This document shows positions 2,871 to 38,764 of a DNA stretch of 64,000 nucleotides, piece after piece. The notes beneath the pieces were generated by a model that was not told where the DNA came from, did no database searches, and worked only from the letters and a program-made list of their open reading frames with translations. The stretch comes from Escherichia coli. GTDB lineage: Bacteria > Pseudomonadota > Gammaproteobacteria > Enterobacterales > Enterobacteriaceae. Positions within the stretch are counted from its first letter, which is position 1, and each line of letters starts with the position of its first letter. A program made the position numbers and the translations under genes. The stretch lies in the NCBI RefSeq assembly GCF_016026235.1, contig NZ_CP065613.1, one strand, 5' to 3'.

Positions 2871-2883
2871 TGATCGTGCAAAT

Positions 2884-3045
2884 TCAATAAATTGCAGCGT
2901 TCTGTGGATACTGGTTTGGGTGATCGTATCCGGCAAAGCCTTTGCGTGCGGTGGCAGTTGACGGGGTATCTGCTGCGCTGGCCATGAGAGGAAGAGCGGC
3001 GGCGACAGCAACAACAAGAAGTTTGGGTGAAAACGAAAATTCCAT
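2884..3045 (-). pseudogene. aslA: 5' stub of a periplasmic protein gene, probably arylsulfatase aslA; rest of gene absent
   Basis: Minus-strand ATG at 3045 encodes [28 protein letters not shown]..., a classic Sec signal peptide with AXA site, then stops after 53 codons; this is where aslA is expected (convergent with aslB, before glmZ/hemY) but only ~160 bp remain. Confidence 0.45.
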
Positions 3046-3676: not shown

Positions 3677-3723
3677 ATGCATCAGAAAGGTCCCGGAGGT
3701 GCTTGCCTCCGGGTGAGAAGGAA

Positions 3724-6176: not shown

Positions 6177-6197
6177 TATGGCTTCCTGTTATGAGAG

Positions 6198-6938: not shown

Positions 6939-7876
6939 GTCGGGGCGTCTCCGTTATAGACTTCAGCGAGGATCTCGCGCGCGCCGTTATTCAGTAGCTC
7001 TTCTGCCAGCGAAATCCCCATTTGTTCGGCATCTTGCGGCGCACCGCGGCGTTCACCGCGAATAATCTGCGAACCGTCCGGCGCGCCGACCAGCGCACGC
7101 AGCCAGATTTCACCATCAATAAGCTCGGCGTAGCTACCAATTGGCACCTGACATCCGCCTTCGAGACGGGTATTCATGGCGCGTTCTGCGGTAACGCGCA
7201 GTGCAGTTTCGTGGTGATTCAGCGCGGCAAGCAGCTCGCGAGTGCGTGCATCATCAAGGCGGCATTCAATACCCACCGCACCTTGCCCTACCGCCGGAAG
7301 AGAAATCTCGGGTGGCAACGCGGCGCGAATACGTGACTCCAGACCTAAACGTTTTAGTCCGGCTACGGCAAGAATGATGGCATCGTATTCGCCGTTATCT
7401 AGTTTGCTCAGGCGAGTGCCGACGTTGCCGCGCAGGGAGCGGATAATCAGATCCGGGCGGCGTTCAGCCAGTTGGCACTGGCGACGTAAACTGGACGTCC
7501 CGACGATACTGCCTGCCGGTAACGCATCCAGACTGTCATAATTATTGGACACAAAGGCATCGCGAGGATCTTCACGCTCACAAATAGTGACCAACCCCAG
7601 ACCTTGCGGGAATTCAACCGGCACATCTTTCATTGAATGTACGGCGATATCGGCGCGATTCTCCAGGAGCGCGACTTCCAGCTCTTTTACAAATAAGCCT
7701 TTTCCGCCTACTTTCGCCAGCGGCGTATCAAGAATCACATCGCCGCGCGTCACCATCGGTACCAGTTCAACCACCAGGCCCGGATGGCTCGCCATCAACT
7801 TGTCTTTGACATAGTGTGCCTGCCAGAGTGCAAGTGGGCTTTGGCGTGTGGCAATTCTTAAAACATTGTCTAACAT
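6935..7876 (-). CDS. hemC: Porphobilinogen deaminase / hydroxymethylbilane synthase (313 aa from ATG 7876; ORF track extends to 7897)
   Basis: Product begins [20 protein letters not shown]... as HemC does; first gene of hemCDXY, divergent from cyaA. Confidence 0.92.
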
Positions 7877-8262
7877 GCTTGTTACCGTCATTATCATCCG
7901 TGGTCCATCCTAACATCCTTGCCAGAGTGATGTCAGTGTTGTGGTGAAACGTAGACGCTTGCGCAAACCGTAAAATGAGGTCTGGCAGTGGATCCTGACA
8001 GGCGTTTCACGCCGTCGTAATAAGGAATTTACAGAGAATAAACGGTGCTACACTTGTATGTAGCGCATCTTTCTTTACGGTCAATCAGCAAGGTGTTAAA
8101 TTGATCACGTTTTAGACCATTTTTTCGTCGTGAAACTAAAAAAACCAGGCGCGAAAAGTGGTAACGGTTACCTTTGACATACGAAATATCCCGAATGCCG
8201 CGTGTTACCGTTGATGTTGGCGGAATCACAGTCATGACGGGTAGCAAATCAGGCGATACGTC

Positions 8263-10809
8263 TTGTACCTCTATATTGAGACTCTGAAACAGAGACTGGA
8301 TGCCATAAATCAATTGCGTGTGGATCGCGCGCTTGCTGCTATGGGGCCTGCATTCCAACAGGTCTACAGTCTACTGCCGACATTGTTGCACTATCACCAT
8401 CCGCTAATGCCGGGTTACCTTGATGGTAACGTTCCCAAAGGCATTTGCCTTTACACGCCTGATGAAACTCAACGCCACTACCTGAACGAGCTTGAACTGT
8501 ATCGTGGAATGTCAGTACAGGACCCACCGAAAGGTGAGCTTCCAATTACTGGTGTATACACCATGGGCAGCACCTCGTCCGTAGGGCAAAGTTGTTCCTC
8601 TGACCTGGATATCTGGGTCTGTCATCAATCCTGGCTCGATAGCGAAGAGCGCCAGTTACTACAACGTAAATGTAGTCTGCTGGAAAGCTGGGCCGCCTCG
8701 CTGGGTGTGGAAGTCAGCTTCTTCCTGATTGATGAAAACCGCTTCCGTCATAATGAAAGCGGCAGCCTGGGGGGCGAAGATTGTGGCTCCACCCAGCATA
8801 TACTGCTGCTTGACGAATTTTATCGTACCGCCGTGCGTCTCGCCGGTAAGCGTATTCTGTGGAATATGGTGCCGTGCGACGAAGAAGAGCATTACGACGA
8901 CTATGTGATGACGCTTTACGCGCAGGGCGTGCTGACGCCAAATGAATGGCTGGATCTCGGTGGCTTAAGCTCGCTTTCTGCTGAAGAGTACTTTGGTGCC
9001 AGCCTTTGGCAGCTCTACAAGAGTATCGATTCCCCATACAAAGCGGTACTGAAAACACTGCTGCTGGAAGCCTATTCCTGGGAATACCCGAACCCACGTC
9101 TGCTGGCGAAAGATATCAAACAGCGTTTGCACGACGGCGAGATTGTATCGTTTGGTCTCGATCCATACTGCATGATGCTGGAGCGTGTTACTGAATACCT
9201 GACGGCGATTGAAGATTTTACCCGTCTGGATTTAGTACGTCGCTGCTTCTATTTAAAAGTGTGCGAAAAGCTCAGCCGTGAACGCGCCTGCGTAGGCTGG
9301 CGTCGCGCAGTGTTGAGCCAGTTAGTGAGCGAGTGGGGTTGGGACGAAGCTCGTCTGGCAATGCTCGATAACCGTGCTAACTGGAAGATTGATCAGGTGC
9401 GTGAGGCGCACAACGAGCTGCTCGACGCGATGATGCAGAGCTACCGTAATCTGATCCGCTTTGCGCGTCGCAATAACCTTAGCGTCTCCGCCAGTCCGCA
9501 GGATATCGGCGTACTGACGCGTAAACTGTATGCCGCGTTTGAAGCATTGCCAGGTAAAGTGACGCTGGTAAACCCGCAGATTTCGCCCGATCTCTCGGAA
9601 CCGAATCTGACCTTTATTTATGTGCCGCCGGGCCGTGCTAACCGTTCAGGTTGGTATCTGTATAACCGCGCGCCAAATATTGAGTCGATCATCAGCCATC
9701 AGCCGCTGGAATATAACCGTTACCTGAATAAACTGGTGGCGTGGGCATGGTTTAACGGTCTGCTGACCTCGCGCACCCGTTTGTATATTAAAGGTAACGG
9801 CATTGTCGATTTGCCTAAGTTGCAGGAGATGGTCGCCGACGTGTCGCACCATTTCCCGCTGCGCTTACCTGCACCGACACCGAAGGCGCTCTACAGCCCG
9901 TGTGAGATCCGCCATCTGGCGATTATCGTTAACCTGGAATATGACCCGACAGCGGCGTTCCGCAATCAGGTGGTGCATTTTGATTTCCGTAAGCTGGATG
10001 TCTTCAGCTTTGGCGAGAATCAAAATTGCCTGGTAGGTAGCGTTGACCTGCTGTACCGCAACTCGTGGAACGAAGTGCGTACGCTGCACTTCAACGGCGA
10101 GCAATCGATGATCGAAGCCCTGAAAACTATTCTCGGCAAAATGCATCAGGACGCCGCACCGCCAGATAGCGTGGAAGTCTTCTGTTATAGCCAGCATCTG
10201 CGCGGCTTAATCCGTACTCGCGTGCAGCAACTGGTTTCTGAGTGTATTGAACTGCGCCTTTCCAGCACCCGCCAGGAAACCGGGCGTTTCAAGGCGCTGC
10301 GCGTTTCTGGTCAAACCTGGGGGTTGTTCTTCGAACGCCTGAATGTATCGGTACAAAAACTGGAAAACGCCATCGAGTTTTATGGCGCTATTTCGCATAA
10401 CAAACTGCACGGCCTGTCAGTGCAGGTTGAAACCAATCACGTCAAATTACCGGCGGTGGTGGACGGCTTTGCTAGTGAAGGGATCATCCAGTTCTTCTTC
10501 GAAGAAACGCAAGACGAGAATGGCTTTAATATCTACATTCTTGACGAAAGCAACCGGGTTGAGGTGTATCACCACTGCGAAGGCAGCAAAGAGGAACTGG
10601 TGCGTGACGTCAGTCGCTTCTACTCGTCATCGCACGACCGCTTCACCTACGGCTCAAGCTTCATCAACTTCAACCTGCCGCAGTTCTATCAGATTGTGAA
10701 GGTTGATGGTCGTGAACAGGTGATTCCGTTCCGCACAAAATCTATCGGTAACATGCCGCCTGCCAATCAGGATCACGATACGCCGCTATTACAGCAATAT
10801 TTTTCGTGA
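8263..10809 (+). CDS. cyaA: Adenylate cyclase, class I (848 aa, TTG start)
   Basis: 848 aa ORF beginning TTG TAC CTC TAT ATT GAG ([19 protein letters not shown]...); cyaA is known to use a TTG start. Confidence 0.95.
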
Positions 10810-17401: not shown

Positions 17402-17833
17402 TTAACCTTTCCGCTCGACGGAAATCATGGTGACAAAAGGATAGCGTTGCCACGGGATTGCCCCGCCTTTCATATACATATGTGAAATCGTACCATCAAG
17501 ATAAAGCAGCTGCTCAACGTTCAGTTTCGCTTTGGCATAACAGGCAAAATCATAAAAATTTGTCGCCTGCTGGCTCAACAAAAACACGGCATTCCCATGT
17601 TTATTAATCCCAACACCGTTACGAATTTTACGTGAGGCGACGTTGGGATGAATACGCGGATTAATTACACCGTTTTCCATCAACATTGGCCCTGACTGCA
17701 CCGCAAACTGAATATCTTTACTGGCTTTAAAAGCATCTAGACGAACGATGCCGACTTTATCTCCCGCGACATAAAACACGCCGCCAGGACGGATAAAGAA
17801 ATTCCCTTCACCTGAAGCGAGATTTAACGCCAC
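17402..17833 (-). pseudogene. yigE: yigE (DUF2233) 3' portion, separated from its 5' portion by IS4
   Basis: 143 aa ORF fragment abutting the IS4 left end; together with 19269-19604 it reconstitutes a ~254 aa protein. Confidence 0.75.
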
Positions 17834-19268
17834 CTTCTGCTGTAATGCCGATCAGTTAAGGATCAGTTGACCGATCCAGTGGCTGTGTAAGAATCCGGAA
17901 ACGCTCACTTGTTTCCGGATTTTTTTATGCACATTGGACAGGCTCTTGATCTGGTATCCCGTTACGATTCTCTGCGTAACCCACTGACTTCTCTGGGGGA
18001 TTACCTCGACCCCGAACTCATCTCTCGTTGCCTTGCCGAATCAGGTACTGTAACGCTACGCAAGCGCCGTCTTCCCCTCGAAATGATGGTCTGGTGTATT
18101 GTTGGCATGGCGCTTGAGCGTAAAGAACCTCTTCACCAGATTGTGAATCGCCTGGACATCATGCTGCCGGGCAATCGCCCCTTCGTTGCCCCCAGTGCCG
18201 TTATTCAGGCCCGCCAGCGCCTGGGAAGTGAGGCTGTCCGCCGCGTGTTCACGAAAACAGCGCAGCTCTGGCATAACGCCACGCCGCATCCGCACTGGTG
18301 CGGCCTGACCCTGCTGGCCATCGATGGTGTGTTCTGGCGCACACCGGATACACCAGAGAACGATGCAGCCTTCCCCCGCCAGACACATGCCGGGAACCCG
18401 GCGCTCTACCCGCAGGTCAAAATGGTCTGCCAGATGGAACTGACCAGCCATCTGCTGACGGCTGCAGCCTTCGGCACGATGAAGAACAGCGAAAATGAGC
18501 TTGCTGAGCAACTTATAGAACAAACCGGCGATAACACTCTGACGTTAATGGATAAAGGTTATTACTCACTGGGACTGTTAAATGCCTGGAGCCTGGCGGG
18601 AGAACACCGCCACTGGATGATACCTCTCAGAAAGGGAGCGCAATATGAAGAGCTCAGAAAACTGGGTAAAGGCGATCATCTGGTGAAGCTGAAAACCAGC
18701 CCGCAGGCACGAAAAAAGTGGCCGGGACTGGGAAATGAAGTGACAGCCCGCCTGCTGACCGTGACGCGCAAAGGAAAAGTCTGCCATCTGCTGACGTCGA
18801 TGACGGACGCCATGCGCTTCCCCGGAGGAGAAATGGCGGATCTGTACAGTCATCGCTGGGAAATCGAACTGGGATACAGGGAGATAAAACAGACGATGCA
18901 ACTGAGCAGGCTGACGCTGAGAAGTAAAAAGCCGGAGCTTGTGGAGCAAGAGCTGTGGGGTGTCTTACTGGCTTATAATCTGGTGAGATATCAGATGATT
19001 AAAATGGCGGAACATCTGAAAGGTTACTGGCCGAATCAACTGAGTTTCTCAGAATCATGCGGAATGGTGATGAGAATGCTGATGACATTGCAGGGCGCTT
19101 CACCGGGACGTATACCGGAGCTGATGCGCGATCTTGCAAGTATGGGACAACTTGTGAAATTACCGACGAGAAGGGGAAGGGCCTTCCCGAGAGTGGTAAA
19201 GGAGAGGCCCTGGAAATACCCCACAGCCCCGAAAAAGAGCCAGTCAGTTGCTTAACTGACTGGCATTA
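17834..19268 (+). mobile_element. IS4 insertion sequence with 12 bp target-site duplication CACCTTCTGCTG
   Basis: Terminal inverted repeats TAATGCCGATCAGTTAAG (left) and CTTAACTGACTGGCATTA (right, 16/18 match); identical 12 bp direct repeats at 17822-17833 and 19269-19280. Confidence 0.9.
17927..19255 (+). CDS. insG: IS4 DDE transposase (442 aa from ATG 17927)
   Basis: Product [30 protein letters not shown]... recognised as IS4-family transposase; inside the IR-bounded element. Confidence 0.88.
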
Positions 19269-19604
19269 CACCTTCTGCTGACCGTTTTCGATGTACAAAC
19301 CGAGCGGCGCATAGCTTTCATCATAGATGCCGCCGTTCATCGCCATCTGCACCTGACCCTGACTATTCATATCCGCCAGCAGAGCATGTAACGTTCCCCA
19401 CGCTTCGCCATTAGCTTTTTGCCAGTACATTTTCACCCGCTCTGTTTGAGGATTAACGGTATACGCCTGTACGGTCAGCGTCGGATCTGAGAGTGCGCAA
19501 TCATCAGCGGCAACAGCAAACAAGGGAAGTAAGGTGAGGGTGAGAAAAATCTGTTTGAGATTCAAGGTGATCATTCCTTTACCAATGAGTAGCCGATGCG
19601 CCAT
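19269..19604 (-). pseudogene. yigE: yigE 5' portion (signal peptide and N-terminal domain), truncated by IS4
   Basis: 112 aa ORF with N-terminal signal peptide (LTLTLLPLFAVAADD) that runs into the IS4 right end. Confidence 0.75.
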
Positions 19605-19973: not shown

Positions 19974-20924
19974 ATGCTGAGCGCATTTCAACTGGAAAAT
20001 AACCGACTGACCCGGCTGGAAGTCGAAGAGTCACAACCCCTTGTAAATGCAGTATGGATTGATCTTGTCGAACCGGACGACGACGAGCGACTGCGCGTAC
20101 AATCTGAACTTGGCCAGAGCCTGGCAACCCGCCCGGAACTGGAAGACATCGAAGCATCGGCACGTTTCTTTGAAGACGACGACGGCCTGCATATTCACTC
20201 CTTCTTCTTCTTTGAAGATGCGGAAGATCACGCCGGTAACTCCACTGTGGCATTTACCATCCGTGATGGTCGTCTGTTTACTCTGCGTGAGCGTGAACTG
20301 CCCGCTTTTCGTCTGTATCGTATGCGTGCCCGTAGCCAGTCGATGGTAGACGGTAACGCCTACGAGCTGCTGCTGGATCTGTTCGAAACCAAAATCGAAC
20401 AGTTGGCAGATGAAATTGAAAATATCTATAGCGACCTGGAGCAGTTGAGCCGGGTGATTATGGAAGGGCATCAGGGCGATGAGTACGACGAGGCGCTCTC
20501 CACTCTGGCGGAACTGGAAGATATCGGCTGGAAAGTTCGCCTGTGTCTGATGGATACCCAGCGCGCGCTCAACTTCCTGGTGCGTAAAGCGCGTTTACCG
20601 GGTGGGCAACTGGAGCAGGCGCGTGAAATCCTGCGAGATATCGAATCCCTGCTGCCGCATAACGAATCCCTGTTCCAGAAGGTGAACTTCCTGATGCAGG
20701 CGGCGATGGGTTTTATCAACATCGAGCAGAACCGCATCATCAAAATCTTCTCGGTGGTATCCGTGGTATTCCTGCCGCCGACGCTCGTTGCTTCCAGCTA
20801 TGGGATGAACTTTGAGTTTATGCCAGAACTGAAGTGGAGTTTCGGCTACCCAGGCGCGATTATCTTTATGATCCTCGCGGGCCTGGCACCGTATCTGTAC
20901 TTTAAGCGCAAGAACTGGCTGTAA
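19974..20924 (+). CDS. corA: Mg2+/Co2+ transport protein CorA (316 aa from ATG 19974)
   Basis: [17 protein letters not shown]...; C-terminal [11 protein letters not shown] signature (GMN motif) and two TM helices. Confidence 0.95.
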
Positions 20925-20977: not shown

Positions 20978-21457
20978 TTATTTAAAGTCATGCGGATTGA
21001 AAACTCGCTCTATTTTATTTTCTTGTGTTAATTGATACTCAGTAAAATCGTTAATACCAATATGAGTGTTACGATAAGGGTATTCATTAATAACCATTAA
21101 GTAATTTTTCACGATGCAATTATCATTGCTCTTAATTGTCGGGAAACAGTAGAGATCTTCATACGGCCCTTCGATATATTTTTTATAGTCAGTGAAGCCA
21201 TTACCGATATCAATGACATACCAGGTATGCCAACTACCTTCTGGTAGGGGATGTTGATTTTTAATTTCATTCTGATGCTTCAGATACCAATTTATTTTAT
21301 CGCTGTCAGTCCATGGCAGATGATCAACGACCAGAAAGACTGAATTGCCAGCATCAGAGTATGTATACAAAATCTGTACAGGACGCAATGTCCATAAATT
21401 ATAGATGCAGCATAGAAGAAATAAACATAATATAATTTTCTGGAGTTTGCTTTTCAT
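20978..21457 (-). CDS. Hypothetical protein with N-terminal membrane anchor or signal (159 aa); second gene of low-GC islet
   Basis: ORF with hydrophobic N-terminus (IILCLFLLCCIYNLW) and W/Y-rich soluble domain; start overlaps stop of the upstream 284 aa gene by 4 bp (ATGA); very AT-rich codon usage. Confidence 0.6.
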   Translation of the reverse strand: MKSKLQKIILCLFLLCCIYNLWTLRPVQILYTYSDAGNSVFLVVDHLPWTDSDKINWYLKHQNEIKNQHPLPEGSWHTWYVIDIGNGFTDYKKYIEGPYEDLYCFPTIKSNDNCIVKNYLMVINEYPYRNTHIGINDFTEYQLTQENKIERVFNPHDFK

Positions 21458-22308
21458 AGATAATTTTCGATTCTTTCGATAGTGTTAAAATTGGTGAAAA
21501 AAGGTTTGAAAGCAAAGTCTTTATGCCGTTGTAAAAAGAACCATATGCGAAAAAATCTATATTTGCTGTAAGTCTTGTTTTTGATATCAGTTACATCAAG
21601 ACCGAAGTGGTCCTGTGCTACAAAATGAATTGTTGCACTCCATCCTATAGCGTATTTTTGAAAACTTAAAAGAGATATTTTTTGAGCTGAAATATCATGA
21701 ACACTGATTCCTAAGCCATTAAAACTGTCCTCGAAGTCATTAAATTTATTTAGTCTTGATGAAAGTAATTTGGTTTTAATGCTTTGCAGGATAAGAGGTT
21801 GGTATCCTGTCGAGGGAGTTGAATTAATGCCATTTTCGATACATTCTTTGATTATTCGTATTGGACTATTATAACCATATTTATTTATTTTTTCATGAAA
21901 AGATAAATTTAATTGTTGGCTATGAAAATTGCTGCCATTTCCATATCTAAAATGTTCAATCAGATCTTCGATAAGTGTTTTATATTGTCCAAAAAAGGAA
22001 AGCATTTTTGCTAGTTCTTTCATTTCTGCAAATAAAATATCAGTGCATTCACGTTGTGATATTTTTGTTCCGGAACTTGAGGCACTAAAAGCAACATTAA
22101 TAGAACCTGGGCCAGGGAAATGGTATTTAATAAGTCTGTAAGGATCAACTTTTGCTGAGATATCGCTTAGGCCGAGTGAGAGAAAGTCTTGTTCTACCAT
22201 ATCACCATATTGCATATCATCAGCAGAAAAATCATCGAATAAACTAATAGTTTCGAAAAGTGTACAGGGAATATTAATTGGCGGAAGTAATATGTTATTC
22301 ATTTGCAT
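21454..22308 (-). CDS. Hypothetical cytoplasmic protein (284 aa); first gene of low-GC islet
   Basis: Long ORF in a low-GC segment absent from K-12 as I recall it; no recognisable Walker, GxSxG or nucleotidyltransferase motif on inspection. Confidence 0.6.
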   Translation of the reverse strand: MQMNNILLPPINIPCTLFETISLFDDFSADDMQYGDMVEQDFLSLGLSDISAKVDPYRLIKYHFPGPGSINVAFSASSSGTKISQRECTDILFAEMKELAKMLSFFGQYKTLIEDLIEHFRYGNGSNFHSQQLNLSFHEKINKYGYNSPIRIIKECIENGINSTPSTGYQPLILQSIKTKLLSSRLNKFNDFEDSFNGLGISVHDISAQKISLLSFQKYAIGWSATIHFVAQDHFGLDVTDIKNKTYSKYRFFRIWFFLQRHKDFAFKPFFTNFNTIERIENYL

Positions 22309-22515
22309 TTGCCTTGGTTATATTTAAGCTCAATATCAATTCGAGAACAAATGCTAGGGTAAAAAAATATTTAAAAAAGAAGTACACTTCACATTTTTTC
22401 ATTACATCTCTGAAGAGAACCTCGTTAATGATTGGTCTTGCTCATTGTTAATAACAAAATGTTGAATTTACCGATTAGGAAACTTTTTCCTACGCGGATT
22501 GCCTCCAGTTCTGGC

Positions 22516-22635
22516 ATGAACTTTGAGTTTATGCCAGAACTGAAGTGGGGCTTCGGCTACCCTGGCGCGATTATCTTTATGATCCTCGCGGGCCTGACAC
22601 CGTATCTGTACTTTAAGCGTAAGAACTGGCTGTAA
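22516..22635 (+). pseudogene. corA: Duplicated corA 3' end (last ~39 codons plus stop), ~96% identical to 20805-20924
   Basis: Direct alignment: 115/120 identical; weaker homology continues ~20 bp upstream. ORF track reports a 67 aa ORF ending in the CorA C-terminus. Confidence 0.85.
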
Positions 22636-22659
22636 CTATACGATGTCGCTGTGAGTAAG

Positions 22660-23046
22660 TTAGTGTGCTGACAGCGACATTTTAGCCGAGGGAATCGCAG
22701 ATAACATAATTGTTGTGAATAATATCCATGCCACGTTGAGTTGGACGCTTAATGACTCACATCTCACCCCTTCAATTGCTGCAGAGATAATAGAAAAAAG
22801 TGTCAAACCCAATGAAATCAATACAAAGTAGATTGCCTTACATCCAGTATCTCTTATTCTTTTTGCTCCAATATTGATATTTACATAGGTATTATTAATA
22901 ACCAGAATAAAACTCAAAGCCAGGTTGATATCATTCAAAGTTATTAATATTGACCATGATGTTAATGTATAGATTATGAACTGAAAGCGTGATAAACGCT
23001 CAAGCCTGGATGGGTAGAATATATTTCTGATGGATGATTTGAACAT
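22660..23046 (-). CDS. yigF: Small inner membrane protein (DUF2628-like)
   Basis: 128 aa hydrophobic ORF in the expected position between corA and rarD; low GC. Confidence 0.6.
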   Translation of the reverse strand: MFKSSIRNIFYPSRLERLSRFQFIIYTLTSWSILITLNDINLALSFILVINNTYVNINIGAKRIRDTGCKAIYFVLISLGLTLFSIISAAIEGVRCESLSVQLNVAWILFTTIMLSAIPSAKMSLSAH

Positions 23047-23245
23047 TTTTACATTGTTTTATATATATAATTGTTTTGAATATATATTACCTGAATTATG
23101 TGGTTTGCATATATATATGCAATATAGCAGTCTTTGCATTGATAACTATACAGTAGTAATTTAGAGTGTGTAAGTTTTTATTGATGGGGTATATTTTAAT
23201 TAAATATAATTGAAATGTATTTTTATTCTATAAACAATATCTTGG

Positions 23246-23560
23246 GTGAATGGATTCTATATGGGAAATGGTAACTTTTGGCAGTTGTTCTTGGGTAAAG
23301 AACCTTACAGCAAAAAATCTTATTTTGTTAAGGCATGGTTATTGTGGTGGGCTATTACCATCCTTGTTCTATTTATTTTAAGCCTGACTACGACATTAAA
23401 TTTAAGAAGTATAGGTATAGGGTTAAGTTTTGGGTTTTGTCAAATTCTTGGTAGATATACGATGTCTCTAGGATGGAGTAAGTACTGGGGAGTTTTGGGG
23501 GTATTTCCTGTAACAAATATTGTTCTTTTTCTTATCTTAATTTTTTTCAAAAAAAGATAA
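23246..23560 (+). CDS. yigG: Small inner membrane protein
   Basis: 104 aa ORF with two predicted TM segments, divergent from yigF; low GC. Confidence 0.5.
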   Translation: MNGFYMGNGNFWQLFLGKEPYSKKSYFVKAWLLWWAITILVLFILSLTTTLNLRSIGIGLSFGFCQILGRYTMSLGWSKYWGVLGVFPVTNIVLFLILIFFKKR

Positions 23561-23606
23561 ATAAGTCAGTGGGTAGGCTCTTTAAACGGCCTACCCATGT
23601 TAATTC

Positions 23607-24494
23607 TTAACTTTTTCTACGCTGCGTATAAATCGCATCCATCACAAAAATTGCCAGCGCCACCCAAATAAAGGCGAAAGTCACCATCTTATCGGCACCC
23701 GGTTTTTCACCATAAAACGTCACAGCCAGCAGGAACATCAGCGTCGGGCCAATGTACTGGAAAAAGCCTAACGTTGAGAGACGCAAGCGCGTGGCAGCGG
23801 CGGTAAAACACAACAGCGGTACGGTAGTGACAATACCGGCGGCGATCAGCAGTAAATTCAGCGACATCGGGTTTTGCCCCATATGGCTGGTTGAGCTGTC
23901 GGCAATAGCAAACAGGTAAATTGCCGCCACGGGCAGCAGCCACATGGTTTCGATTAACATGCCGGTTTGCGCTTCAACGGCAATCTTCTTGCGTACCAGA
24001 CCGTAGAAGGCAAAACTAAATGCTAGCCCCAGCGCGATAATAGGTAGCGAACCAAAAGTCCACAGCTGGACCAACACGCCACATATCGCCAGAATCACCG
24101 CCAGCCATTGCATCCGGCGGAATCGCTCGCCGAGGAAAATCATCCCCAGCACAATGTTCACCAGCGGGTTAATAAAGTAACCAAGGCTCGCTTCCAGCAT
24201 ATGGTGATTGTTCACCGCCCAGATAAACAGTAGCCAGTTGCCACCAATCAGCACGGCAGAGACTGCCAGCATAAAAATTTTCTGTGGCGTCTGAATCAGC
24301 GTTTTTAAATAGGACCACTGGCGGCAAATGCTCATCAGCACCACCATAAAGAAAAACGACCAGATCACGCGATGCGTCAGGATTTCATCGGCGGGCACGT
24401 AGTAAATCAACTTGAAGTACGCTGGCGCTATACCCCAAATAAAATAAGCGGCAAGAGCGAGTAATACGCCCTGCCGCGTTTGTTTTGCATCCAT
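23607..24494 (-). CDS. rarD: EamA/DMT-family transporter RarD
   Basis: 295 aa, 10-TM DMT-like profile; conserved position. Confidence 0.88.
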   Translation of the reverse strand: MDAKQTRQGVLLALAAYFIWGIAPAYFKLIYYVPADEILTHRVIWSFFFMVVLMSICRQWSYLKTLIQTPQKIFMLAVSAVLIGGNWLLFIWAVNNHHMLEASLGYFINPLVNIVLGMIFLGERFRRMQWLAVILAICGVLVQLWTFGSLPIIALGLAFSFAFYGLVRKKIAVEAQTGMLIETMWLLPVAAIYLFAIADSSTSHMGQNPMSLNLLLIAAGIVTTVPLLCFTAAATRLRLSTLGFFQYIGPTLMFLLAVTFYGEKPGADKMVTFAFIWVALAIFVMDAIYTQRRKS

Positions 24495-33367: not shown

Positions 33368-35629
33368 ATGACAATATTGAATCACACCCTCGGTTTCCCT
33401 CGCGTTGGCCTGCGTCGCGAGCTGAAAAAAGCGCAAGAGAGTTATTGGGCAGGGAACTCCACGCGTGAAGAACTGCTGGCGGTAGGGCGTGAATTGCGTG
33501 CTCGTCACTGGGATCAACAAAAGCAAGCGGGTATCGACCTGCTGCCGGTGGGCGATTTTGCCTGGTACGATCATGTACTGACCACCAGTTTGCTGCTGGG
33601 TAATGTTCCGCCACGTCATCAGAACAAAGACGGTTCGGTAGATATCGACACCCTGTTCCGTATTGGTCGTGGACGTGCGCCGACTGGCGAACCTGCGGCG
33701 GCAGCGGAAATGACCAAATGGTTTAACACCAACTATCACTACATGGTGCCGGAGTTCGTTAAAGGCCAACAGTTCAAACTGACCTGGACGCAGCTGCTGG
33801 AGGAAGTGGACGAGGCGCTGGTGCTGGGCCACAACGTTAAGCCTGTGCTGCTGGGGCCGGTTACTTACCTGTGGCTGGGGAAAGTGAAAGGTGAACAGTT
33901 TGACCGCCTTAGCCTGCTGAACGACATTCTGCCGGTTTATCAGCAAGTGCTGGCAGAACTGGCGAAACGCGGCATCGAGTGGGTACAGATTGATGAACCC
34001 GCGCTGGTACTGGAACTACCACAGGCGTGGCTGGACGCATACAAACCCGCTTACGACGCGCTCCAGGGACAGGTGAAACTGCTGCTGACCACCTATTTTG
34101 AAGGCGTAACGCCAAATCTCGACACGATTACTGCGCTGCCTGTTCAGGGTCTGCATGTTGACCTCGTACATGGTAAAGATGACGTTGCTGAACTGCACAA
34201 GCGCCTGCCTTCTGACTGGTTGCTGTCTGCGGGTCTGATCAATGGTCGTAACGTCTGGCGCGCCGATCTTACCGAGAAATATGCGCAAATTAAGGACATT
34301 GTCGGCAAACGTGATTTATGGGTGGCATCTTCCTGCTCGTTGCTGCACAGCCCCATCGACCTGAGCGTGGAAACGCGTCTTGATGCAGAAGTGAAAAGCT
34401 GGTTTGCCTTCGCCCTGCAAAAATGTCATGAACTGGCACTGCTGCGAGATGCGCTGAACAGTGGTGATACGGCAGCTCTGGCAGAGTGGAGCGCTCCAAT
34501 TCAGGCGCGTCGTCACTCTACTCGTGTACATAACCCGGCAGTAGAAAAGCGTCTGGCGGCGATCACCGCCCAGGACAGCCAGCGTGCGAATGTCTATGAA
34601 GTGCGTGCCGAAGCCCAGCGTGCGCGTTTTAAACTGCCAGCGTGGCCGACCACCACGATTGGTTCCTTCCCGCAAACCACGGAAATTCGTACCCTGCGTC
34701 TGGATTTCAAAAAGGGTAATCTCGACGCCAACAACTACCGCACGGGCATTGCGGAACATATCAAGCAGGCCATTGTTGAACAGGAACGTTTGGGACTGGA
34801 TGTGCTGGTACATGGCGAGGCCGAGCGTAATGACATGGTGGAATACTTTGGCGAGCACCTCGACGGATTTGTCTTTACGCAAAACGGTTGGGTACAGAGC
34901 TACGGTTCCCGCTGCGTGAAGCCACCGATTGTCATTGGTGACATTAGCCGCCCGGCACCGATTACCGTGGAGTGGGCGAAGTATGCGCAATCTCTGACTG
35001 ATAAACCGGTGAAAGGGATGCTGACTGGCCCGGTGACCATTCTCTGCTGGTCGTTCCCGCGTGAAGATGTCAGCCGTGAAACCATCGCCAAACAAATTGC
35101 GCTGGCGCTGCGTGATGAAGTGGCGGACCTGGAAGCCGCAGGAATTGGCATCATCCAGATTGATGAACCGGCGCTGCGCGAAGGTTTACCGCTGCGTCGT
35201 AGCGACTGGGATGCATATCTCCAGTGGGGCGTGGAGGCCTTCCGTATCAACGCCGCCGTGGCGAAAGATGACACACAAATCCACACTCACATGTGTTATT
35301 GCGAGTTCAACGACATCATGGATTCGATTGCGGCACTGGATGCAGACGTCATCACCATCGAAACCTCGCGTTCCGACATGGAGTTGCTGGAGTCGTTTGA
35401 AGAGTTTGATTATCCGAATGAAATCGGTCCAGGCGTCTATGACATTCACTCGCCAAACGTACCGAGCGTGGAATGGATTGAAGCCTTGCTGAAGAAAGCG
35501 GCAAAACGCATTCCGGCAGAGCGCCTGTGGGTCAACCCGGACTGTGGCCTGAAAACGCGCGGCTGGCCAGAAACCCGCGCGGCACTGGCGAACATGGTGC
35601 AGGCGGCGCAGAATTTGCGTCGGGGATGA
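33368..35629 (+). CDS. metE: Cobalamin-independent methionine synthase
   Basis: 753 aa; starts [24 protein letters not shown]...; C-terminal zinc-binding His/Cys/Glu motifs. Confidence 0.96.
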
Positions 35630-35734
35630 TGAATATTAACGAGTCACTGTAAATTGCAGTACGATGAAAGAGGCAAAACTGCCTGATACCAGGCCTACAT
35701 AATTTATGCAATTTATTGAATTTTTGAGTTTTGT

Positions 35735-35775
35735 TGGCCGGACAAGGCGTTCACGCCGCATCCGGCATGAACAAC
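35735..35775. repeat. REP element
   Basis: GGCCGGACAAGGCGTTCACGCCGCATCCGGCATGAACAA downstream of metE. Confidence 0.65.
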
Positions 35776-35913
35776 GCGCACTTTGCCAATAATCTGATGG
35801 CTTCCATCACCGGAAGCCATTTTGCTATCTGCGCCCGTTCAGATACAGAAATAACCGAATCATTTTTACGCAAAATATAATCCTGAGCGATTTGTTCAGT
35901 AATCAACGCTACG

Positions 35914-36189
35914 TTATTTATTCTCACTTTTCACGAAATTGTATCCCTTTTCAGTAACGTGGTAGTGAGGCATAGACTTATGTCCGCTATCCTCAATAAT
36001 AACCAAACCCTCGTTAGCTAATTTGTTAACAATGTTAACAACATTACCGAATCCTGGAATTTGCCTTATGGATAGTGTGCGATCGAGATTCATCCAGTTC
36101 CAGTTTATATCTTTCTCAGCCATAACTTTCAGTACGTTAATTTCAGTTTCAGTTATCATAGTCAAGTGCATCCTGGTGGTATAAGTCAT
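35914..36189 (-). CDS. Small hypothetical protein, candidate immunity protein for the upstream Hcp-ET toxin (up to 91 aa; true start may be an internal Met)
   Basis: ORF immediately downstream of, and overlapping, the 3' end of the toxin-domain ORF; the usual toxin-immunity gene arrangement. No homology check possible here. Confidence 0.45.
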   Translation of the reverse strand: MTYTTRMHLTMITETEINVLKVMAEKDINWNWMNLDRTLSIRQIPGFGNVVNIVNKLANEGLVIIEDSGHKSMPHYHVTEKGYNFVKSENK

Positions 36190-37296
36190 TAAGTTCTCCC
36201 TTAAGTTTATAATCTTCTAGAGTAGCAGTATGCGTATGATTCCAGAGTGCATAGCCTGCGTCACCATCAGGTTGTCCTGTTTCCCAACCAAGATTACAGT
36301 AACGCTGATATTCCCGACACTCATGAGTATAGAAGTTAAGATCTACTTGTTCTGGGGGGATTTTTCCTTTCTCAATGTCTTTCAGTCTATTGATCATCAC
36401 TTCATTTACAGGGTCATGACCAAATCTGGCTATGTGTTTTTCAACAATAGCGATACCTTCCCTGTTGATTGTTACGCCATCTGTCGTCAGATTTTCTATT
36501 GGACCACCGGCAAGGTCGGGATTAAATGGTCTTCCTGATACTGCTCCTCTGGCTCCGAAATGCTCAAGTGATTCCAAATCAGGGAGTCTCATTCTCCCCA
36601 GAACTGCTCCAGCAACTATTGAAGCACCAGCGATGAGTAACCCTTTGTTATCCATAAATTGATCGTAACCAGCAGGTGCATCTCCCCCCAACTTGTCTGC
36701 TGTTTCCCTGAATCCTTCGATATTCCCATTGTATATGCCGCCAGCAGCAAGCAGTCTGCCAACCGCTTTACTATTAAGTGTTTTGAACCATTACCAGCTT
36801 TAGTTTTTGGCCGTGGTATAAACAGACGGTTGTAGTTATCGGGAAATGCCAAATAACTAAATTCAGTATTAGCAATCAGATGCCTGGAGAGTATATATTC
36901 ATAACTGACAGTGATGGCTTCTGTATCCAGATTGTTCTCAGTAAACAGGTGATTGATTGCTGATAAGAGCGCGCCGCGGAGTTGAATGTTGTAATATTTC
37001 TCCCATCGACCAAACCTATTGATCCGATAGAAGTCAAACTCCATGAACAACTGCTCGTTATTGTTAATAGCGTTAATAAGTAACGGGGAGCTTTTGTCAA
37101 TCAATTTACAGAAACTAAGGCCATGCAATTATGACCCTTTGCCTGTATTCGTAATACTATTAGAGAGCGAGAACGCGAAGATTTCATCATCATGGCCAAT
37201 CTGCCAGCGATTACCTATTGATGCGCTCGTTCCACAACGAGAGGAAATACATCCTTGTTGTTCTCCGGTTATGGTCAGGTAAATAATATCACTCAT
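36149..37296 (-). pseudogene. hcp: T6SS Hcp with C-terminal extended toxin domain (Hcp-ET type), broken by an in-frame TAA and a frameshift
   Basis: Minus-strand ATG at 37296 encodes MSDIIYLTITGEQQGCISSRCGTSASIGNRWQIGHDDEIFAFSLSNSITNTGKGS*, an Hcp N-terminal signature; same frame continues after the TAA (37129-37131) with ...KLIDKSSPLLINAINNNEQLFMEFDFYRINRFGRWEKYY... (Hcp core); a frame change near 36745 joins it to a ~180 aa C-terminal domain. Confidence 0.7.
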
Positions 37297-37690
37297 CCTT
37301 GAAAAACCTTTTGTTAATTCTTTTGTGAAAGAGAAATAGTATTGTTGTTTTTTTTTACCTTTATTTACGCCTAAAAGTGATGAACTAAAATGTGAAAAAC
37401 AAAATGTTTCACTTTAATATCTTTTTATCAGGAAGGTCTGAGATGATTTATAATTAATGTGAATGTGTTGATAATAATTAATGTTTGTTTGTGAATGGGA
37501 GTTGATGGTAAATCTCTAAGGTGTCTTCCATTGAAGAGACTCATTTATGACTATGACTTGCCGACTTTTTTAAGGTCAAATAGCGGAGTCGTAATCTCCA
37601 ATCAATTCATACTGATTATTTTTTGGGGGACAGAGATGGCAGCAAAACGCACTCGTTCACTCACCATCTCAAATATAGACTAAGAGGAAA

Positions 37691-38503
37691 CTAACTCCGC
37701 TTCCCACCATACTGCTTAAACCATTCCAGCATACGCTGCCAGCCATCTTTCGCAGATTCGGCATGATAGCTCGGGCGATAATCAGCGTTGAATGCATGCC
37801 CGGCATCCGGGTACACGATAATCTCTGCTTTCGCATTAGCAGCCCGCAGCGCCTGGCGCATGGTTTCAACGCTCTCCTGCGGAATACTGTTATCCAGACC
37901 GCCATATAAGCCGAGAACCGGCGCGTTAAGATCGGTTGCGATATCAACAGGTTGTTTCGGTGAATTCAACGACTTGTCGCCCGTCAGTTTGCCGTACCAC
38001 GCCACTGCGGCTTTTAGCTGTGGATTATGCGCGGCATACAGCCAGGTGATACGTCCACCCCAGCAGAATCCGGTGATCATTAAACGATGAACATCGCCGC
38101 CGTTGCGGGAAGCCCAACTGGCGACATGATCGAGATCGGCCAGCACCTGCGAGTCAGGCACTTTTGCTACCAGACCGCTAAGCAACGTGGGGATATCGGC
38201 AAAATCATTCGGATCGCCTTCGCGGAAGTAAAGTTCAGGTGCGATAGCCAGATACCCCTCCAGCGCCAGACGGCGACAAATGTCGCGGATATGTTCATGC
38301 ACGCCAAAAATTTCCTGCACTACAATGACCACTGGCAGTGGGCCATCGCTTTGCTTTGGTCTGGCATGGTAAGCAGGCATGTTATCCCCTTGTGAAGGGA
38401 TAGAGGTGAAGCCCGCCACAATCGCGTCGTCCGGGGTCTGAACGATGGTCGAAGCGAGAGGCGATGCAGCAGGTGCAAATCCAGATTGTTGTGTTGTTGC
38501 CAT
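37691..38503 (-). CDS. ysgA: Dienelactone hydrolase-family protein (271 aa from ATG 38503; ORF track extends to 38569)
   Basis: Alpha/beta hydrolase with GFCWGG nucleophile motif; good SD (GGAGAA) before the 38503 start. Confidence 0.88.
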   Translation of the reverse strand: MATTQQSGFAPAASPLASTIVQTPDDAIVAGFTSIPSQGDNMPAYHARPKQSDGPLPVVIVVQEIFGVHEHIRDICRRLALEGYLAIAPELYFREGDPNDFADIPTLLSGLVAKVPDSQVLADLDHVASWASRNGGDVHRLMITGFCWGGRITWLYAAHNPQLKAAVAWYGKLTGDKSLNSPKQPVDIATDLNAPVLGLYGGLDNSIPQESVETMRQALRAANAKAEIIVYPDAGHAFNADYRPSYHAESAKDGWQRMLEWFKQYGGKRS

Positions 38504-38764
38504 GGTATTCTCCGTACCCTTATAAAAATGTTGCGCAATGTTAACTATAGTCAGCATGCAACAAATCACATTGCCTGAATCGGCTCATCTTTTATGCAGT
38601 CCTGCAGAATGAAGAGTGATTTATGTGATTTGCATCACTTTTGGTGGGTAAATTTATGCAACGCATTTGCGTCATGGTGATGAGTATCACGAAAAAATGT
38701 TAAACCCTTCGGTAAAGTGTCTTTTTGCTTCTTCTGACTAAACCGATTCACAGAGGAGTTGTAT

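What the first reader, a model, noticed from the sequence alone, without database searches (positions are those of the whole stretch)
22640..23600. yigF-yigG block next to the islet is itself markedly AT-rich, suggesting the corA 3' region is an old horizontal-acquisition hotspot
The divergent small membrane protein genes yigF and yigG, and the 200 bp between them (alternating AT runs such as ATATATATAATTG and ATATATATGCAATATAG), have much lower GC than surrounding core genes. Together with the newly inserted cassette immediately upstream, this suggests successive insertions at the same corA-proximal site, with yigF/yigG an older, now-fixed layer.
Basis: inference. Interest (0 to 1): 0.3.

Follow-up and report, generated by a model that had tools for sequence, protein, structure and literature searches.

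The report
AT-rich swap cassette, not yigF-yigG
The AT-rich stretch between corA and rarD is real, but it is not the K-12 genes yigF and yigG: it is a different two-gene cassette for small membrane proteins, carried by about a quarter of E. coli genomes at a site where several cassettes replace one another, which is an ordinary chromosomal gene-exchange hotspot.

Summary
Observation confirmed. Window 22640-23600 has GC 0.32 against 0.515 for the window (z = -4). GC3 is 0.31-0.36 against 0.59 +/- 0.04 in core genes. The 199-bp spacer has GC 0.21.

The gene names are wrong. The block (22636-23614) shares no detectable DNA similarity with K-12 yigF-yigG, which are tandem on one strand. It holds two divergent genes. 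ORF128 (22660-23046, minus) is a remote YigG-family homologue (24-29% identity, hhalign E 1e-21) that RefSeq leaves unannotated. ORF99 (23261-23560, plus) is a near-orphan unrelated to YigF. Both are under purifying selection (dN/dS about 0.2).

The block is not fixed. It occurs in 1,463 of 5,426 complete E. coli genomes. The others carry yigFG, an E. albertii-like yigFG allele, only the neighbouring colicin-M-like effector/immunity islet, or almost nothing. Of 80 Enterobacterales species, 42 have an empty 45-273-bp corA-rarD gap.

Cassette and flank histories disagree, no integrase is present, and no phage or genuine plasmid copy was found. Exchange by homologous recombination in the conserved flanks therefore fits best.

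The hotspot idea is supported. "Older, now-fixed yigF/yigG layer" is not. This is an ordinary kind of locus, of low to moderate interest.

The parts
19974..20924 (+). Intact corA, the conserved left flank of the variable interval.
   Evidence: 316-aa ORF. It is 99.3% identical in DNA to K-12 corA and has GC 0.531.
20978..22308 (-). Neighbouring islet (module 1). It holds a DUF943 gene (20978-21457) and a DUF3289/YPO3983-family gene (21454-22308), which form a candidate colicin-M-like type VI effector and immunity pair. It is not part of the block but shares the hotspot.
   Evidence: Pfam DUF943 E 1.4e-26 and DUF3289 E 1.5e-83. NCBIfam TIGR03034 E 3.6e-131. Toxicity of a DUF3289 protein and rescue by DUF943 are reported in PMC11148199. 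GC 0.32-0.34. Present in 2,648 of 5,426 E. coli genomes.
22485..22635 (+). corA' remnant: a duplicated, decaying 3' end of corA (about 137-150 nt, including the stop codon) that separates the islet from the block.
   Evidence: 22499-22635 is 94.9% identical to the K-12 corA 3' end and 93.4% to the window's own corA. The left edge was traced by alignment with the intact gene and with L007. PGAP annotates the equivalent stretch as a partial CorA pseudogene. GC 0.50.
22636..23614 (.). The AT-rich cassette itself ('block B'), bounded by the corA' stop codon and the last codons of rarD.
   Evidence: No blastn similarity to the K-12 corA-rarD interval; homology ends at 22635 and resumes at 23615. 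GC 0.32. Present in 1,463 of 5,426 E. coli genomes, always on the chromosome. Absent from phages; the only two hits in the plasmid collection are 1.0- and 4.8-Mb records.
22643..22680 (+). Hairpin just after the corA' stop codon (13-nt arms, 92% complementary, followed by TTTT). It is probably the corA-side terminator. Its right arm encodes the last codons of ORF128.
   Evidence: Inverted repeat I3 and the sequence itself. The terminator function is inferred.
22660..23046 (-). ORF128: a 128-aa small membrane protein and remote member of the YigG family. PGAP does not annotate it in RefSeq E. coli genomes.
   Evidence: ORF. BLASTP to K-12 YigG gives 29% identity, E 4e-5. Family profile against YigG-position proteins of 11 loci gives hhalign probability 99.4%, E 1.2e-21 over 115 columns. 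NF008474 (YigG equivalog) scores 26 bits against a cut-off of 217. Pfam DUF805 E 0.16. dN/dS is 0.17 against a divergent Escherichia lineage, and an intact 127-aa orthologue exists in Pseudocitrobacter. Three hydrophobic segments. No CDS is annotated there.
23047..23260 (.). Divergent intergenic spacer with GC 0.21 and (AT)n runs. It presumably holds both promoters.
   Evidence: GC 0.211 over 23047-23245. The best sigma-70-like site is at 23181-23210 on the plus strand, but the number of promoter-like sites is no higher than in shuffled sequence (7 against 6.4). It is poorly conserved in L007 and Pseudocitrobacter.
23105..23122 (.). It is allele-specific and not a conserved operator.
   Evidence: Inverted repeat I5. 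Absent from the aligned position in L007 and Pseudocitrobacter.
23261..23560 (+). ORF99: a 99-aa small membrane protein (an alternative GTG start at 23246 gives 104 aa). It is a near-orphan and is annotated only as 'hypothetical protein'.
   Evidence: ORF and PGAP CDS WP_000526442.1. No similarity to YigF or YigG. A profile search of 1.84 billion representatives gives 17 hits. It is 62% identical to a protein at the same site in Pseudocitrobacter corydidari. dN/dS is 0.21. Distant relatives hit DUF805 below threshold, at E 1.3e-4 and 0.031.
23531..23565 (.). T7-C-A7 homopolymer palindrome at the 3' end of ORF99.
   Evidence: Inverted repeat I2. Rare frameshifted C-terminal variants occur in databases (P0017, P0019, P0020).
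23569..23598 (.). GC-rich hairpin between the convergent ORF99 and rarD, probably a bidirectional terminator.
   Evidence: Terminator-like site with 11 pairs, 6 of them G-C; inverted repeat I4. The function is inferred.
23607..24494 (-). rarD, the conserved right flank. Its last two or three codons belong to the replaced segment.
   Evidence: 295-aa ORF. It is 99.4% identical to K-12 from 23615 onward. K-12 rarD is 891 nt against 888 nt here.

Best explanation
Window 22636-23614 is one of several interchangeable, AT-rich accessory cassettes that occupy the short gap between the convergent core genes corA and rarD.

What it encodes: two divergently transcribed small inner-membrane proteins. One is a remote YigG-family protein (ORF128). 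The other is a near-orphan, possibly DUF805-like (ORF99). Both are kept by purifying selection.

What it is not: it is not K-12 yigF-yigG. It takes the place of yigF-yigG at this site in about 27% of E. coli genomes.

Shown: the composition, the lack of homology to yigFG, the patchy distribution, the disagreement between cassette and flank histories, and the absence of mobility genes.

Inferred:
1. Cassettes enter and are swapped by homologous recombination in the highly conserved corA and rarD flanks, including between species. No site-specific element is involved.
2. The convergent terminator gap is tolerated as an insertion site because nothing there is disrupted.
3. Like K-12 yigFG, the block is probably bound and largely silenced by H-NS because of its AT content.

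The biochemical role of the two proteins is unknown. My best guess is an envelope or surface-related accessory function, by analogy with the Salmonella yigG attachment and chlorine-stress phenotypes.
For: Composition: GC 0.32, GC3 0.31-0.36, and a codon index more than 5 sd below core genes.

Not yigFG: there is no DNA similarity and the gene arrangement differs. ORF99 is unrelated to YigF. ORF128 is only remotely YigG-like.

Real genes: dN/dS is 0.17 and 0.21, against 0.011 for corA and rarD over the same pair of genomes. Intact orthologues of 127 and 98 aa sit at the same site in Pseudocitrobacter corydidari, although dS is saturated.

Polymorphic site in E. coli:
- the block in 1,463 of 5,426 genomes;
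- yigFG at 80% or more coverage in 2,962, of which 554 fall in the 60-80% identity band (sampled hits about 79%);
- islet only;
- islet + corA' + block in 1,409;
- islet + corA' + yigFG in 299;
- a near-empty 128-bp derivative.

Across 80 species: 42 empty, 11 with yigF, with or without a YigG-like gene, 20 with GC-normal other genes, 1 islet + yigFG, 1 DUF943 only; rarD was not in the held DNA for the other 5. Within Pseudocitrobacter, one species has the block and another is empty.

Incongruent histories:
- The window's flanks are closest to K-12 (99.3% and 99.1%), yet the cassettes are unrelated.
- The E. albertii yigF region is 99.56% identical to the variant E. coli allele, while their corA genes are 93.9% identical.
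- K-12 yigFG is 97.2% identical to that of Escherichia sp. E1V33, while the flanks are 91.6-95.8%.

No vector: no integrase or transposase in the block, no phage copy, and no genuine plasmid copy.

H-NS analogy: K-12 yigFG (GC 0.35) has been described as a promoter island, as H-NS-silenced horizontally acquired DNA and as an extended protein-occupancy domain.
Against: - H-NS binding of this block was not tested. The TCGATAAATT-like nucleation motif occurs only once in the block.
- Promoter-like sites are no more frequent than composition predicts.
- No recombination tract was mapped, so flank-mediated exchange is inferred from sharp boundaries and incongruence, not observed directly.
- Cassette type was not mapped onto a genome phylogeny. 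The number of independent gains and losses in E. coli is therefore unknown, and part of the pattern could be vertical inheritance within phylogroups.
- The block lies at the same site in a different genus, which is also compatible with old vertical residence followed by many losses.
- No experimental evidence on protein function exists for either gene.
Confidence: 0.72

Rival explanations
1. One reading: the block is yigF-yigG, an older and now fixed layer of horizontally acquired DNA, with the islet as a recent addition.
For: The block sits where yigF-yigG sit in K-12 and is equally AT-rich (0.32 against 0.35). One ORF is a remote YigG-family homologue. The corA' remnant shows that the islet was placed upstream of an existing corA end.
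Against: There is no DNA homology to yigFG and the gene orientation differs. No YigF homologue is present. The block is present in only 27% of E. coli genomes. The islet is more widespread (49%) and more diverse than the block. The same islet-plus-remnant unit also lies upstream of true yigFG.
Confidence: 0.03
2. Old resident genes rather than foreign DNA. The cassette has sat between corA and rarD since before Escherichia and Pseudocitrobacter split. It became AT-rich in place through weak selection and the universal GC-to-AT mutation bias, and its patchy distribution reflects repeated loss.
For: Same site, same gene order and intact ORFs in Pseudocitrobacter corydidari, with saturated dS. 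The GC of yigFG-type cassettes partly tracks host GC: 0.34 in Escherichia against 0.44-0.45 in Kosakonia and Phytobacter. Deletion derivatives exist. No mobility genes are present.
Against: 42 of 80 species, including the closest genera, have an empty gap holding only a terminator hairpin. Sister species differ: P. faecalis is empty and P. corydidari is occupied. Cassette alleles are shared across species at far higher identity than their flanks. Nearly identical flanks carry unrelated cassettes. dN between E. coli and Pseudocitrobacter (0.30-0.47) is higher than about 0.2 times the flank dS would predict.
Confidence: 0.15
3. The block works together with the adjacent type VI effector/immunity islet, for example as extra or orphan immunity-like membrane proteins against envelope-targeting toxins.
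For: It lies beside a DUF3289/DUF943 colicin-M-like effector and immunity pair. It encodes small, fast-evolving, polymorphic membrane proteins, as immunity genes often are. In 1,409 of the 1,430 genomes with most of the block, the islet junction is also present.
Against: The two modules occur independently. The block occurs without the islet in Pseudocitrobacter. The islet occurs alone or with yigFG in about 1,200 E. coli genomes and in Atlantibacter. Neither protein matches any known immunity family. dN/dS of about 0.2 gives no sign of diversifying selection.
Confidence: 0.07
4. Non-functional AT-rich filler. The ORFs are chance open frames in decaying DNA.
For: PGAP omits ORF128. Neither protein reaches a curated family threshold. 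Deletion derivatives and rare frameshift variants exist.
Against: dN/dS is 0.17-0.21. ORF lengths are preserved (128/127 and 99/98 aa) in another genus despite 56-64% DNA identity. The profile match of ORF128 to the YigG family has E 1e-21.
Confidence: 0.03

Closest known systems
E. coli K-12 yigF-yigG (b3817-b3818)
   Same: Same chromosomal slot between the corA and rarD stop codons. Similar size (911 against 979 bp) and AT-richness (0.35 against 0.32). Two small inner-membrane proteins of about 100-130 aa. ORF128 is a remote homologue of YigG. K-12 yigFG is already described as a promoter island, as H-NS-silenced horizontally acquired DNA and as a protein-occupancy domain.
   Different: No DNA similarity. 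The genes are divergent rather than tandem. There is no DUF2628/YigF homologue, and ORF99 is unrelated. The YigG-like gene lies next to corA, where yigF sits in K-12. ORF128 fails the YigG equivalog model, scoring 26 bits against a cut-off of 217.
Chromosomal gene-exchange hotspots between conserved core genes, without integrases (as described for E. coli and other species by Touchon et al. 2009 and Oliveira et al. 2017; cited from my own knowledge, not checked here)
   Same: One interval between two core genes holds different accessory gene families in different genomes. There are no mobility genes, the boundaries at the core genes are sharp, and cassette and flank histories disagree.
   Different: The site is very small (0-3 kb) and has only a handful of recurring cassettes. 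Whether it is listed in the published hotspot catalogues was not checked.
H-NS-silenced xenogeneic AT-rich islands
   Same: GC about 20 points below the genome, atypical codon usage, patchy distribution. The K-12 counterpart is documented as H-NS-bound.
   Different: H-NS binding was not tested for this block. The high-affinity motif is not enriched, and promoter-like sites do not exceed the compositional expectation.
DUF805 family (Pfam PF05656; E. coli YhaH, YhaI)
   Same: Small proteins with several membrane-spanning segments. YigG and ORF128 hit the model weakly (E 0.0069 and 0.16). Distant relatives of ORF99 hit it nearly end to end (E 1.3e-4). The best local alignment of the ORF99 profile to YhaH falls on the RRLHDxxRSxWW motif. 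One source names an ORF99 variant 'YhaH (DUF805 family)'.
   Different: No protein of the block reaches the gathering score. hhalign probability is only 5.6% for YhaH and 0.5% for YhaI. The arginine/aspartate signature is not conserved in ORF99.

Membership tests
K-12 yigF-yigG gene pair | Nucleotide homology to the K-12 corA-rarD interval | tested here: not met
   blastn with word size 7 finds no match between 22636-23614 and K-12; only corA, the corA' remnant and rarD align. Megablast with the K-12 interval and with the block finds largely complementary sets of genomes (3,958 and 1,463 of 5,426).
K-12 yigF-yigG gene pair | Two tandem genes on the rarD strand, with yigF next to corA | tested here: not met
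   In K-12 both genes are on the minus strand. Here the two ORFs are divergent, minus then plus.
K-12 yigF-yigG gene pair | A DUF2628 (YigF) protein | tested here: not met
   K-12 YigF hits PF10947 at E 3.7e-10; neither ORF of the block does. ORF99 against YigF gives BLASTP E 1.4 and hhalign probability 0.2%.
K-12 yigF-yigG gene pair | A YigG equivalog (NCBIfam NF008474, cut-off 217 bits) | tested here: not met
   ORF128 scores 26.2 bits (E 6.8e-6); K-12 YigG scores 255.6 bits.
YigG superfamily (remote homology) | Significant profile-level similarity over most of the protein, including the IF-PS...R and IN-N-xxR-RD-G motifs | tested here: met
   hhalign probability 99.4%, E 1.2e-21, 115 columns. 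BLASTP E 4e-5. tblastn hits to YigG-position ORFs of Phytobacter, Kosakonia and Mangrovibacter.
Horizontally acquired (xenogeneic) DNA | Base composition and codon usage deviate from the host core | tested here: met
   GC 0.32 against 0.515 (z = -4). GC3 is 6-7 sd and the codon index more than 5 sd below core genes.
Horizontally acquired (xenogeneic) DNA | Patchy distribution within and between species | tested here: met
   27% of E. coli genomes. None of the 80 species representatives, but present in Pseudocitrobacter corydidari and absent from P. faecalis. Also found in Shigella sonnei and unclassified Escherichia.
Horizontally acquired (xenogeneic) DNA | Phylogeny incongruent with the flanking core genes | tested here: met
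   Flanks 99.1-99.3% identical to K-12 carry an unrelated cassette. At the same site the E. albertii yigF allele is 99.56% identical to an E. coli allele, against 93.9% for corA. A full mapping onto a genome tree was not done.
Horizontally acquired (xenogeneic) DNA | H-NS occupancy and silencing | not testable with these tools
   Documented only for K-12 yigFG. The motif count in the block is uninformative.
Classical genomic island or integrative element | Integrase or transposase, flanking attachment-site repeats, tRNA or gene-end target | tested here: not met
   There are no such ORFs or Pfam hits in 22636-23614, and no phage or genuine plasmid copy. The only repeat is the corA' duplication, which flanks the neighbouring islet and not the block.
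Core-gene-flanked exchange hotspot | The same core-gene interval holds different, unrelated gene families across genomes | tested here: met
   Six configurations in E. coli. Across 80 species the interval is empty or holds yigFG-type genes, an AbrB-like membrane protein (named from sequence resemblance only; no family search was run), a desaturase-like pair (same basis), or islet variants.
DUF805 (PF05656) | Score at or above the Pfam gathering threshold (25.7 bits) | tested here: inconclusive
   ORF128 scores 12.9 bits and ORF99 has no hit. Distant ORF99 relatives score 22.8 and 15.2 bits with near full-length coverage. hhalign to YhaH aligns the signature motif at probability 5.6%.
Promoter island (as described for K-12 yigF-yigG) | Density of promoter-like sites above expectation | tested here: inconclusive
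   A simple consensus scan finds 7 sites against 6.4 +/- 2.5 in shuffled sequence of the same composition. The published definition uses another algorithm (PlatProm) that was not available.

The most novel reading that the evidence does not exclude
The corA-rarD gap may be a two-slot modular locus. In this reading, slot 2 holds a small set of interchangeable 'allelic cassettes' of DUF805-like small membrane proteins (yigFG, its E. albertii-type variant, and this block). These would be maintained side by side across Enterobacteriaceae by balancing or frequency-dependent selection, for example as surface or envelope determinants that affect susceptibility to phages, colicins or contact-dependent toxins, and passed between species through flank homology. 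Slot 1 would be filled by stacking a second copy of the locus, as in Atlantibacter, where a rarD' + corA' junction is preserved.
Probability: 0.12. Interest if true: 0.55.

Novelty: new member of a known kind. Interest (0 to 1): 0.27.

Why it matters
- It corrects an annotation by position. Roughly 1,400 complete E. coli genomes, including O157:H7, O55:H7, O104:H4 and O45:H2 strains, have no yigF-yigG at this site. They carry a different cassette, and one of its genes (ORF128, YigG-like and under purifying selection) is missing from RefSeq annotation.
- It gives a compact, well-bounded example of how a convergent terminator gap between two conserved genes becomes an exchange site. It includes a clear case of an allele shared between E. 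albertii and E. coli.
- It offers natural allelic series for testing what YigG-like and DUF805-like proteins do.
- It does not change any general principle.

Tried and rejected
1. A 15-nt match to the rarD 3' end at 22481-22495 (shuffle p 0.0035) first suggested a rarD' + corA' stacking junction in E. coli. Alignment with the intact corA and with L007 showed that the string is the decayed 5' edge of the corA' remnant. The stacking junction is shown only for Atlantibacter subterranea (rarD' of 192 nt plus corA' of 267 nt).

2. P0039 and locus L006 looked like a 51%-identical distant homologue. L006 is an error-rich E. coli assembly, 97-98% identical in DNA and full of frameshifts, so it was discarded.

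3. The 18-bp palindrome TTGCATATATATATGCAA was considered as a regulator binding site. It is not conserved in L007 or Pseudocitrobacter.

4. H-NS nucleation motif: one match in the block, so no enrichment.

5. Promoter-like sites are not above the compositional expectation.

6. Rfam: nothing near threshold.

7. Homology of ORF99 to YigF, YigG or ORF128: none.

8. A phage or plasmid vector: none; the two plasmid-collection hits are 1.0- and 4.8-Mb records, too large for ordinary plasmids.

9. Phase variation at the T7-C-A7 tract: only rare frameshift variants.

10. Literature searches by guessed O157 locus tags and by corA + rarD + island returned only false positives. The DUF805 literature holds no functional study.

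11. DUF805 membership of ORF99 through YhaH and YhaI profile comparison: not significant.
Full report
**Setting**

The window is E. coli chromosome. The local gene order is uvrD, yigE (split by an IS4 copy), corA (19974-20924, plus strand), a two-gene AT-rich islet (20978-22308, minus), a 3' fragment of corA (about 22485-22635), the block in question, then rarD (23607-24494, minus), yigI, pldA and recQ.

**Observation**

The AT-richness is real and large.
- Positions 22640-23600 have GC 0.320, against 0.515 for the window. That is four standard deviations below the mean of all 961-bp windows. The only windows as low lie in the same 20.5-24.1 kb tract.
- The minus-strand ORF has GC 0.346, the spacer 0.211 and the plus-strand ORF 0.327. 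corA has 0.531 and rarD 0.506.
- Third-codon-position GC is 0.364 and 0.31, against 0.588 +/- 0.038 for 36 long ORFs in the window. RarD, itself a membrane protein, has 0.618. The bias is therefore compositional and not a by-product of hydrophobic amino acids. A codon index built on core usage gives 0.40 and 0.41 against 0.67 +/- 0.047.

**Identity**

The labels yigF and yigG are wrong.
- In K-12 the corA-rarD interval (911 bp, GC 0.35) holds yigF and yigG in tandem on the minus strand.
- A sensitive blastn of the window against K-12 aligns corA (99.3%), rarD onward from 23615 (99.4%) and the 137-nt corA fragment (94.9%). Nothing between 22636 and 23614 aligns.
- The block holds ORF128 (22660-23046, minus) and ORF99 (23261-23560, plus; an alternative GTG start lies at 23246).
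- ORF128 is 29% identical to K-12 YigG (E 4e-5). A profile of ORF128 and its two orthologues matches a profile of YigG-position proteins from eleven loci at probability 99.4%, E 1.2e-21. It scores only 26 bits on the YigG equivalog model, whose cut-off is 217. It is therefore a remote family member and not yigG.
- ORF99 has no detectable relation to YigF (DUF2628), YigG or ORF128.
- ORF99 is nearly an orphan. There are 31 close hits among 5.8 billion proteins and 17 among 1.84 billion cluster representatives.
- A few 105-111-aa distant relatives of ORF99 hit Pfam DUF805 just below threshold (E 1.3e-4). Comparison with K-12 YhaH and YhaI aligns the family's signature motif without significance. 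DUF805 kinship is possible but unproven.
- PGAP annotates only ORF99, as 'hypothetical protein', and omits ORF128.

**Are they genes?**

Against a divergent Escherichia lineage (L007, whose corA and rarD are 94-95% identical in DNA), dN/dS is 0.17 for ORF128 and 0.21 for ORF99. For corA and rarD it is 0.011. In Pseudocitrobacter corydidari the same two genes (127 and 98 aa; 47% and 62% identity) sit in the same orientation directly between corA and rarD, although synonymous sites are saturated. Both are therefore real genes that evolve quickly. Each has two or three hydrophobic segments.

**Distribution in E. coli**

Among 5,426 complete genomes:
- The block is in 1,463, always on the chromosome.
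- The K-12-type interval is covered at 80% or more in 2,962. Of these, 554 fall in the 60-80% identity band; the sampled hits in that band carry a variant about 79% identical.
- About 1,000 genomes match only 84 bp next to rarD. The sampled genome of this class (ST2747) carries the islet alone plus a 21-codon stub of yigG.
- The junction islet + corA' + block is in 1,409 genomes.
- The same islet + corA' unit upstream of genuine yigF-yigG is in 299.
- One strain has corA joined to the first 73 nt and the last about 60 nt of the block, an 844-bp deletion that leaves a 128-bp gap.
- The islet-only type equals the islet + corA' + yigFG type minus about 0.9 kb.
- The islet is in 2,648 genomes at 80-100% identity. 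That is more common and more diverse than the block, so it is not obviously the newer layer.

**Distribution across species**

A scan for CorA returned one locus for each of 80 Enterobacterales species.
- corA and rarD are convergent neighbours almost everywhere.
- The gap is empty (45-273 bp, usually a GC-rich hairpin) in 42 species. These include most Enterobacter, Citrobacter, Klebsiella, Kluyvera and Yersinia species.
- Eleven species carry yigF, with or without a YigG-like gene, in an AT-poor-to-moderate cassette (GC 0.34-0.45).
- Twenty carry unrelated genes of normal GC. In Serratia, Pectobacterium, Pantoea, Dickeya and Edwardsiella this is a protein of about 350 aa that resembles AbrB-family membrane proteins. 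In Franconibacter, Pluralibacter and one Citrobacter it is a pair that resembles fatty-acid desaturases. Both names rest on sequence resemblance; no family search was run.
- One species has islet + yigFG and one has a lone DUF943 gene. For the remaining five, rarD was not in the held DNA.
- P. faecalis is empty, whereas P. corydidari has the block. A Salmonella study reports yigG as absent from serovar Enteritidis.

**Incongruence**

- The window's flanks are closest to K-12 (corA 99.3%, rarD-pldA 99.1%), although the two carry unrelated cassettes. L007, with flanks only 92-95% identical, carries the same cassette type.
- The E. albertii yigF region is 99.56% identical to the variant allele in E. 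coli strain R14, while their corA genes are 93.9% identical. K-12 yigFG is 97.2% identical to that of Escherichia sp. E1V33, against 91.6-95.8% in the flanks.
- Cassettes therefore move independently of their flanks, including between species.

**Mechanism (inferred)**

- The block has no integrase, transposase or terminal repeats.
- Its edges coincide with the stop codon of corA' and the last codons of rarD.
- No copy exists in 50,697 phage records. The only two hits among 72,556 plasmid records are 1.0- and 4.8-Mb records, too large for ordinary plasmids and read here as chromosomal sequence.
- Together with the incongruence, this fits replacement by homologous recombination in the strongly conserved corA and rarD genes.
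- The neighbouring islet was added differently: it is followed by a duplicate of the corA 3' end.
- In Atlantibacter subterranea the islet is followed by a 192-nt rarD 3' fragment and then a 267-nt corA 3' fragment before yigF-yigG. Two versions of the locus are stacked head to tail there. This would be expected from Campbell-type integration of a circularised fragment, or from homology-facilitated illegitimate recombination.
- In E. coli only the corA' part is detectable. An apparent 15-nt rarD trace turned out to be the decayed edge of corA'.
- The islet encodes DUF3289 and DUF943, reported as a colicin-M-like toxin and its immunity protein.
- The islet and the block occur independently of each other, so I treat them as separate modules.

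**Expression**

K-12 yigF-yigG has been described as a promoter island, as H-NS-repressed horizontally acquired DNA with intragenic promoters, and as an extended protein-occupancy domain. By composition the block should behave alike, but this is analogy only. The H-NS nucleation motif occurs once in the block. Promoter-like sites do not exceed the compositional expectation. The 18-bp palindrome in the spacer is not conserved. No Rfam family matches.

**Verdict**

- The measured observation stands.
- The gene identification is wrong.
- The 'hotspot with successive layers' idea is supported and can be stated more strongly.
- 'Older, now-fixed yigF/yigG layer' is refuted.
- The locus is a typical small exchange hotspot between core genes, and the block is an uncharacterised member of that known kind.

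Noticed in passing
window 35630-37690: A second AT-rich islet (GC about 0.40-0.42) lies between metE (33368-35629) and the ysgA/dlhH-like gene (37691-38557), with only short minus-strand ORFs. ORF 36616-37128 hits Pfam T6SS_HCP (E 7e-11, model positions 51-125), and the 55-aa ORF 37129-37296 looks like the Hcp N-terminus. This appears to be a split Hcp gene with a C-terminal extension, followed by small ORFs (180 and 91 aa) that could be a toxin domain and an immunity gene.
   Followed up: partly
window 17402-19604: An IS4-family transposase gene (17909-19255; Pfam Nterm_IS4 and DDE_Tnp_1) splits yigE into fragments at 17402-17833 and 19266-19604. Strain FDAARGOS_943, which is 100% identical over the block, has an intact yigE.
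   Followed up: partly
window 2800-3724: GC dips to 0.43 between aslB (1565-2800) and hemY (3724-4920). From memory, K-12 has the 1.6-kb aslA gene here. The window holds only a 53-aa ORF (2884-3045, minus) that looks like a signal-peptide-bearing N-terminus, so aslA seems to be largely deleted or replaced.
   Followed up: no
L027 (Atlantibacter subterranea) 5452-8525: The locus reads corA, DUF943/DUF3289 islet, a 192-nt copy of the rarD 3' end (7127-7315, 94.8% to its own rarD), a 267-nt copy of the corA 3' end (7320-7586, 95.5%), then yigF, yigG and rarD. Two versions of the locus are stacked head to tail, which shows how the islet was added.
   Followed up: yes
L004 (E. coli R14) 3001-3458 and L010 (E. 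albertii) 5449-5906: The yigF region of E. coli strain R14, whose yigFG interval is only 79% identical to K-12, is 99.56% identical to the E. albertii yigF region, while corA is only 93.9% identical between the two. One search counts 554 E. coli genomes in the 60-80% identity band, and both sampled hits in that band (R14 and Esc30) are at 79.3%. This points to recent exchange of the cassette between species.
   Followed up: partly
window 22660-23046 (minus strand): ORF128 is not annotated by PGAP in the RefSeq genomes inspected, although it is conserved and under purifying selection. Many database entries for it are 'partial' proteins on contigs of about 58-60 kb. This suggests (not checked) that short-read assemblies often break in the adjacent (AT)n-rich spacer.
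   Followed up: partly
L091 (E. coli S87) 3997-4124: This strain has no islet, and an 844-bp internal deletion of the block leaves a 128-bp corA-rarD gap. It is either a derivative of a block-only ancestor or the product of corA/corA' recombination followed by deletion.
   Followed up: partly
window 23531-23565: A T7-C-A7 homopolymer palindrome lies at the 3' end of ORF99. A few database variants (P0017, P0019, P0020) carry frameshifts here that extend the protein into the terminator. They are too rare to suggest phase variation.
   Followed up: partly
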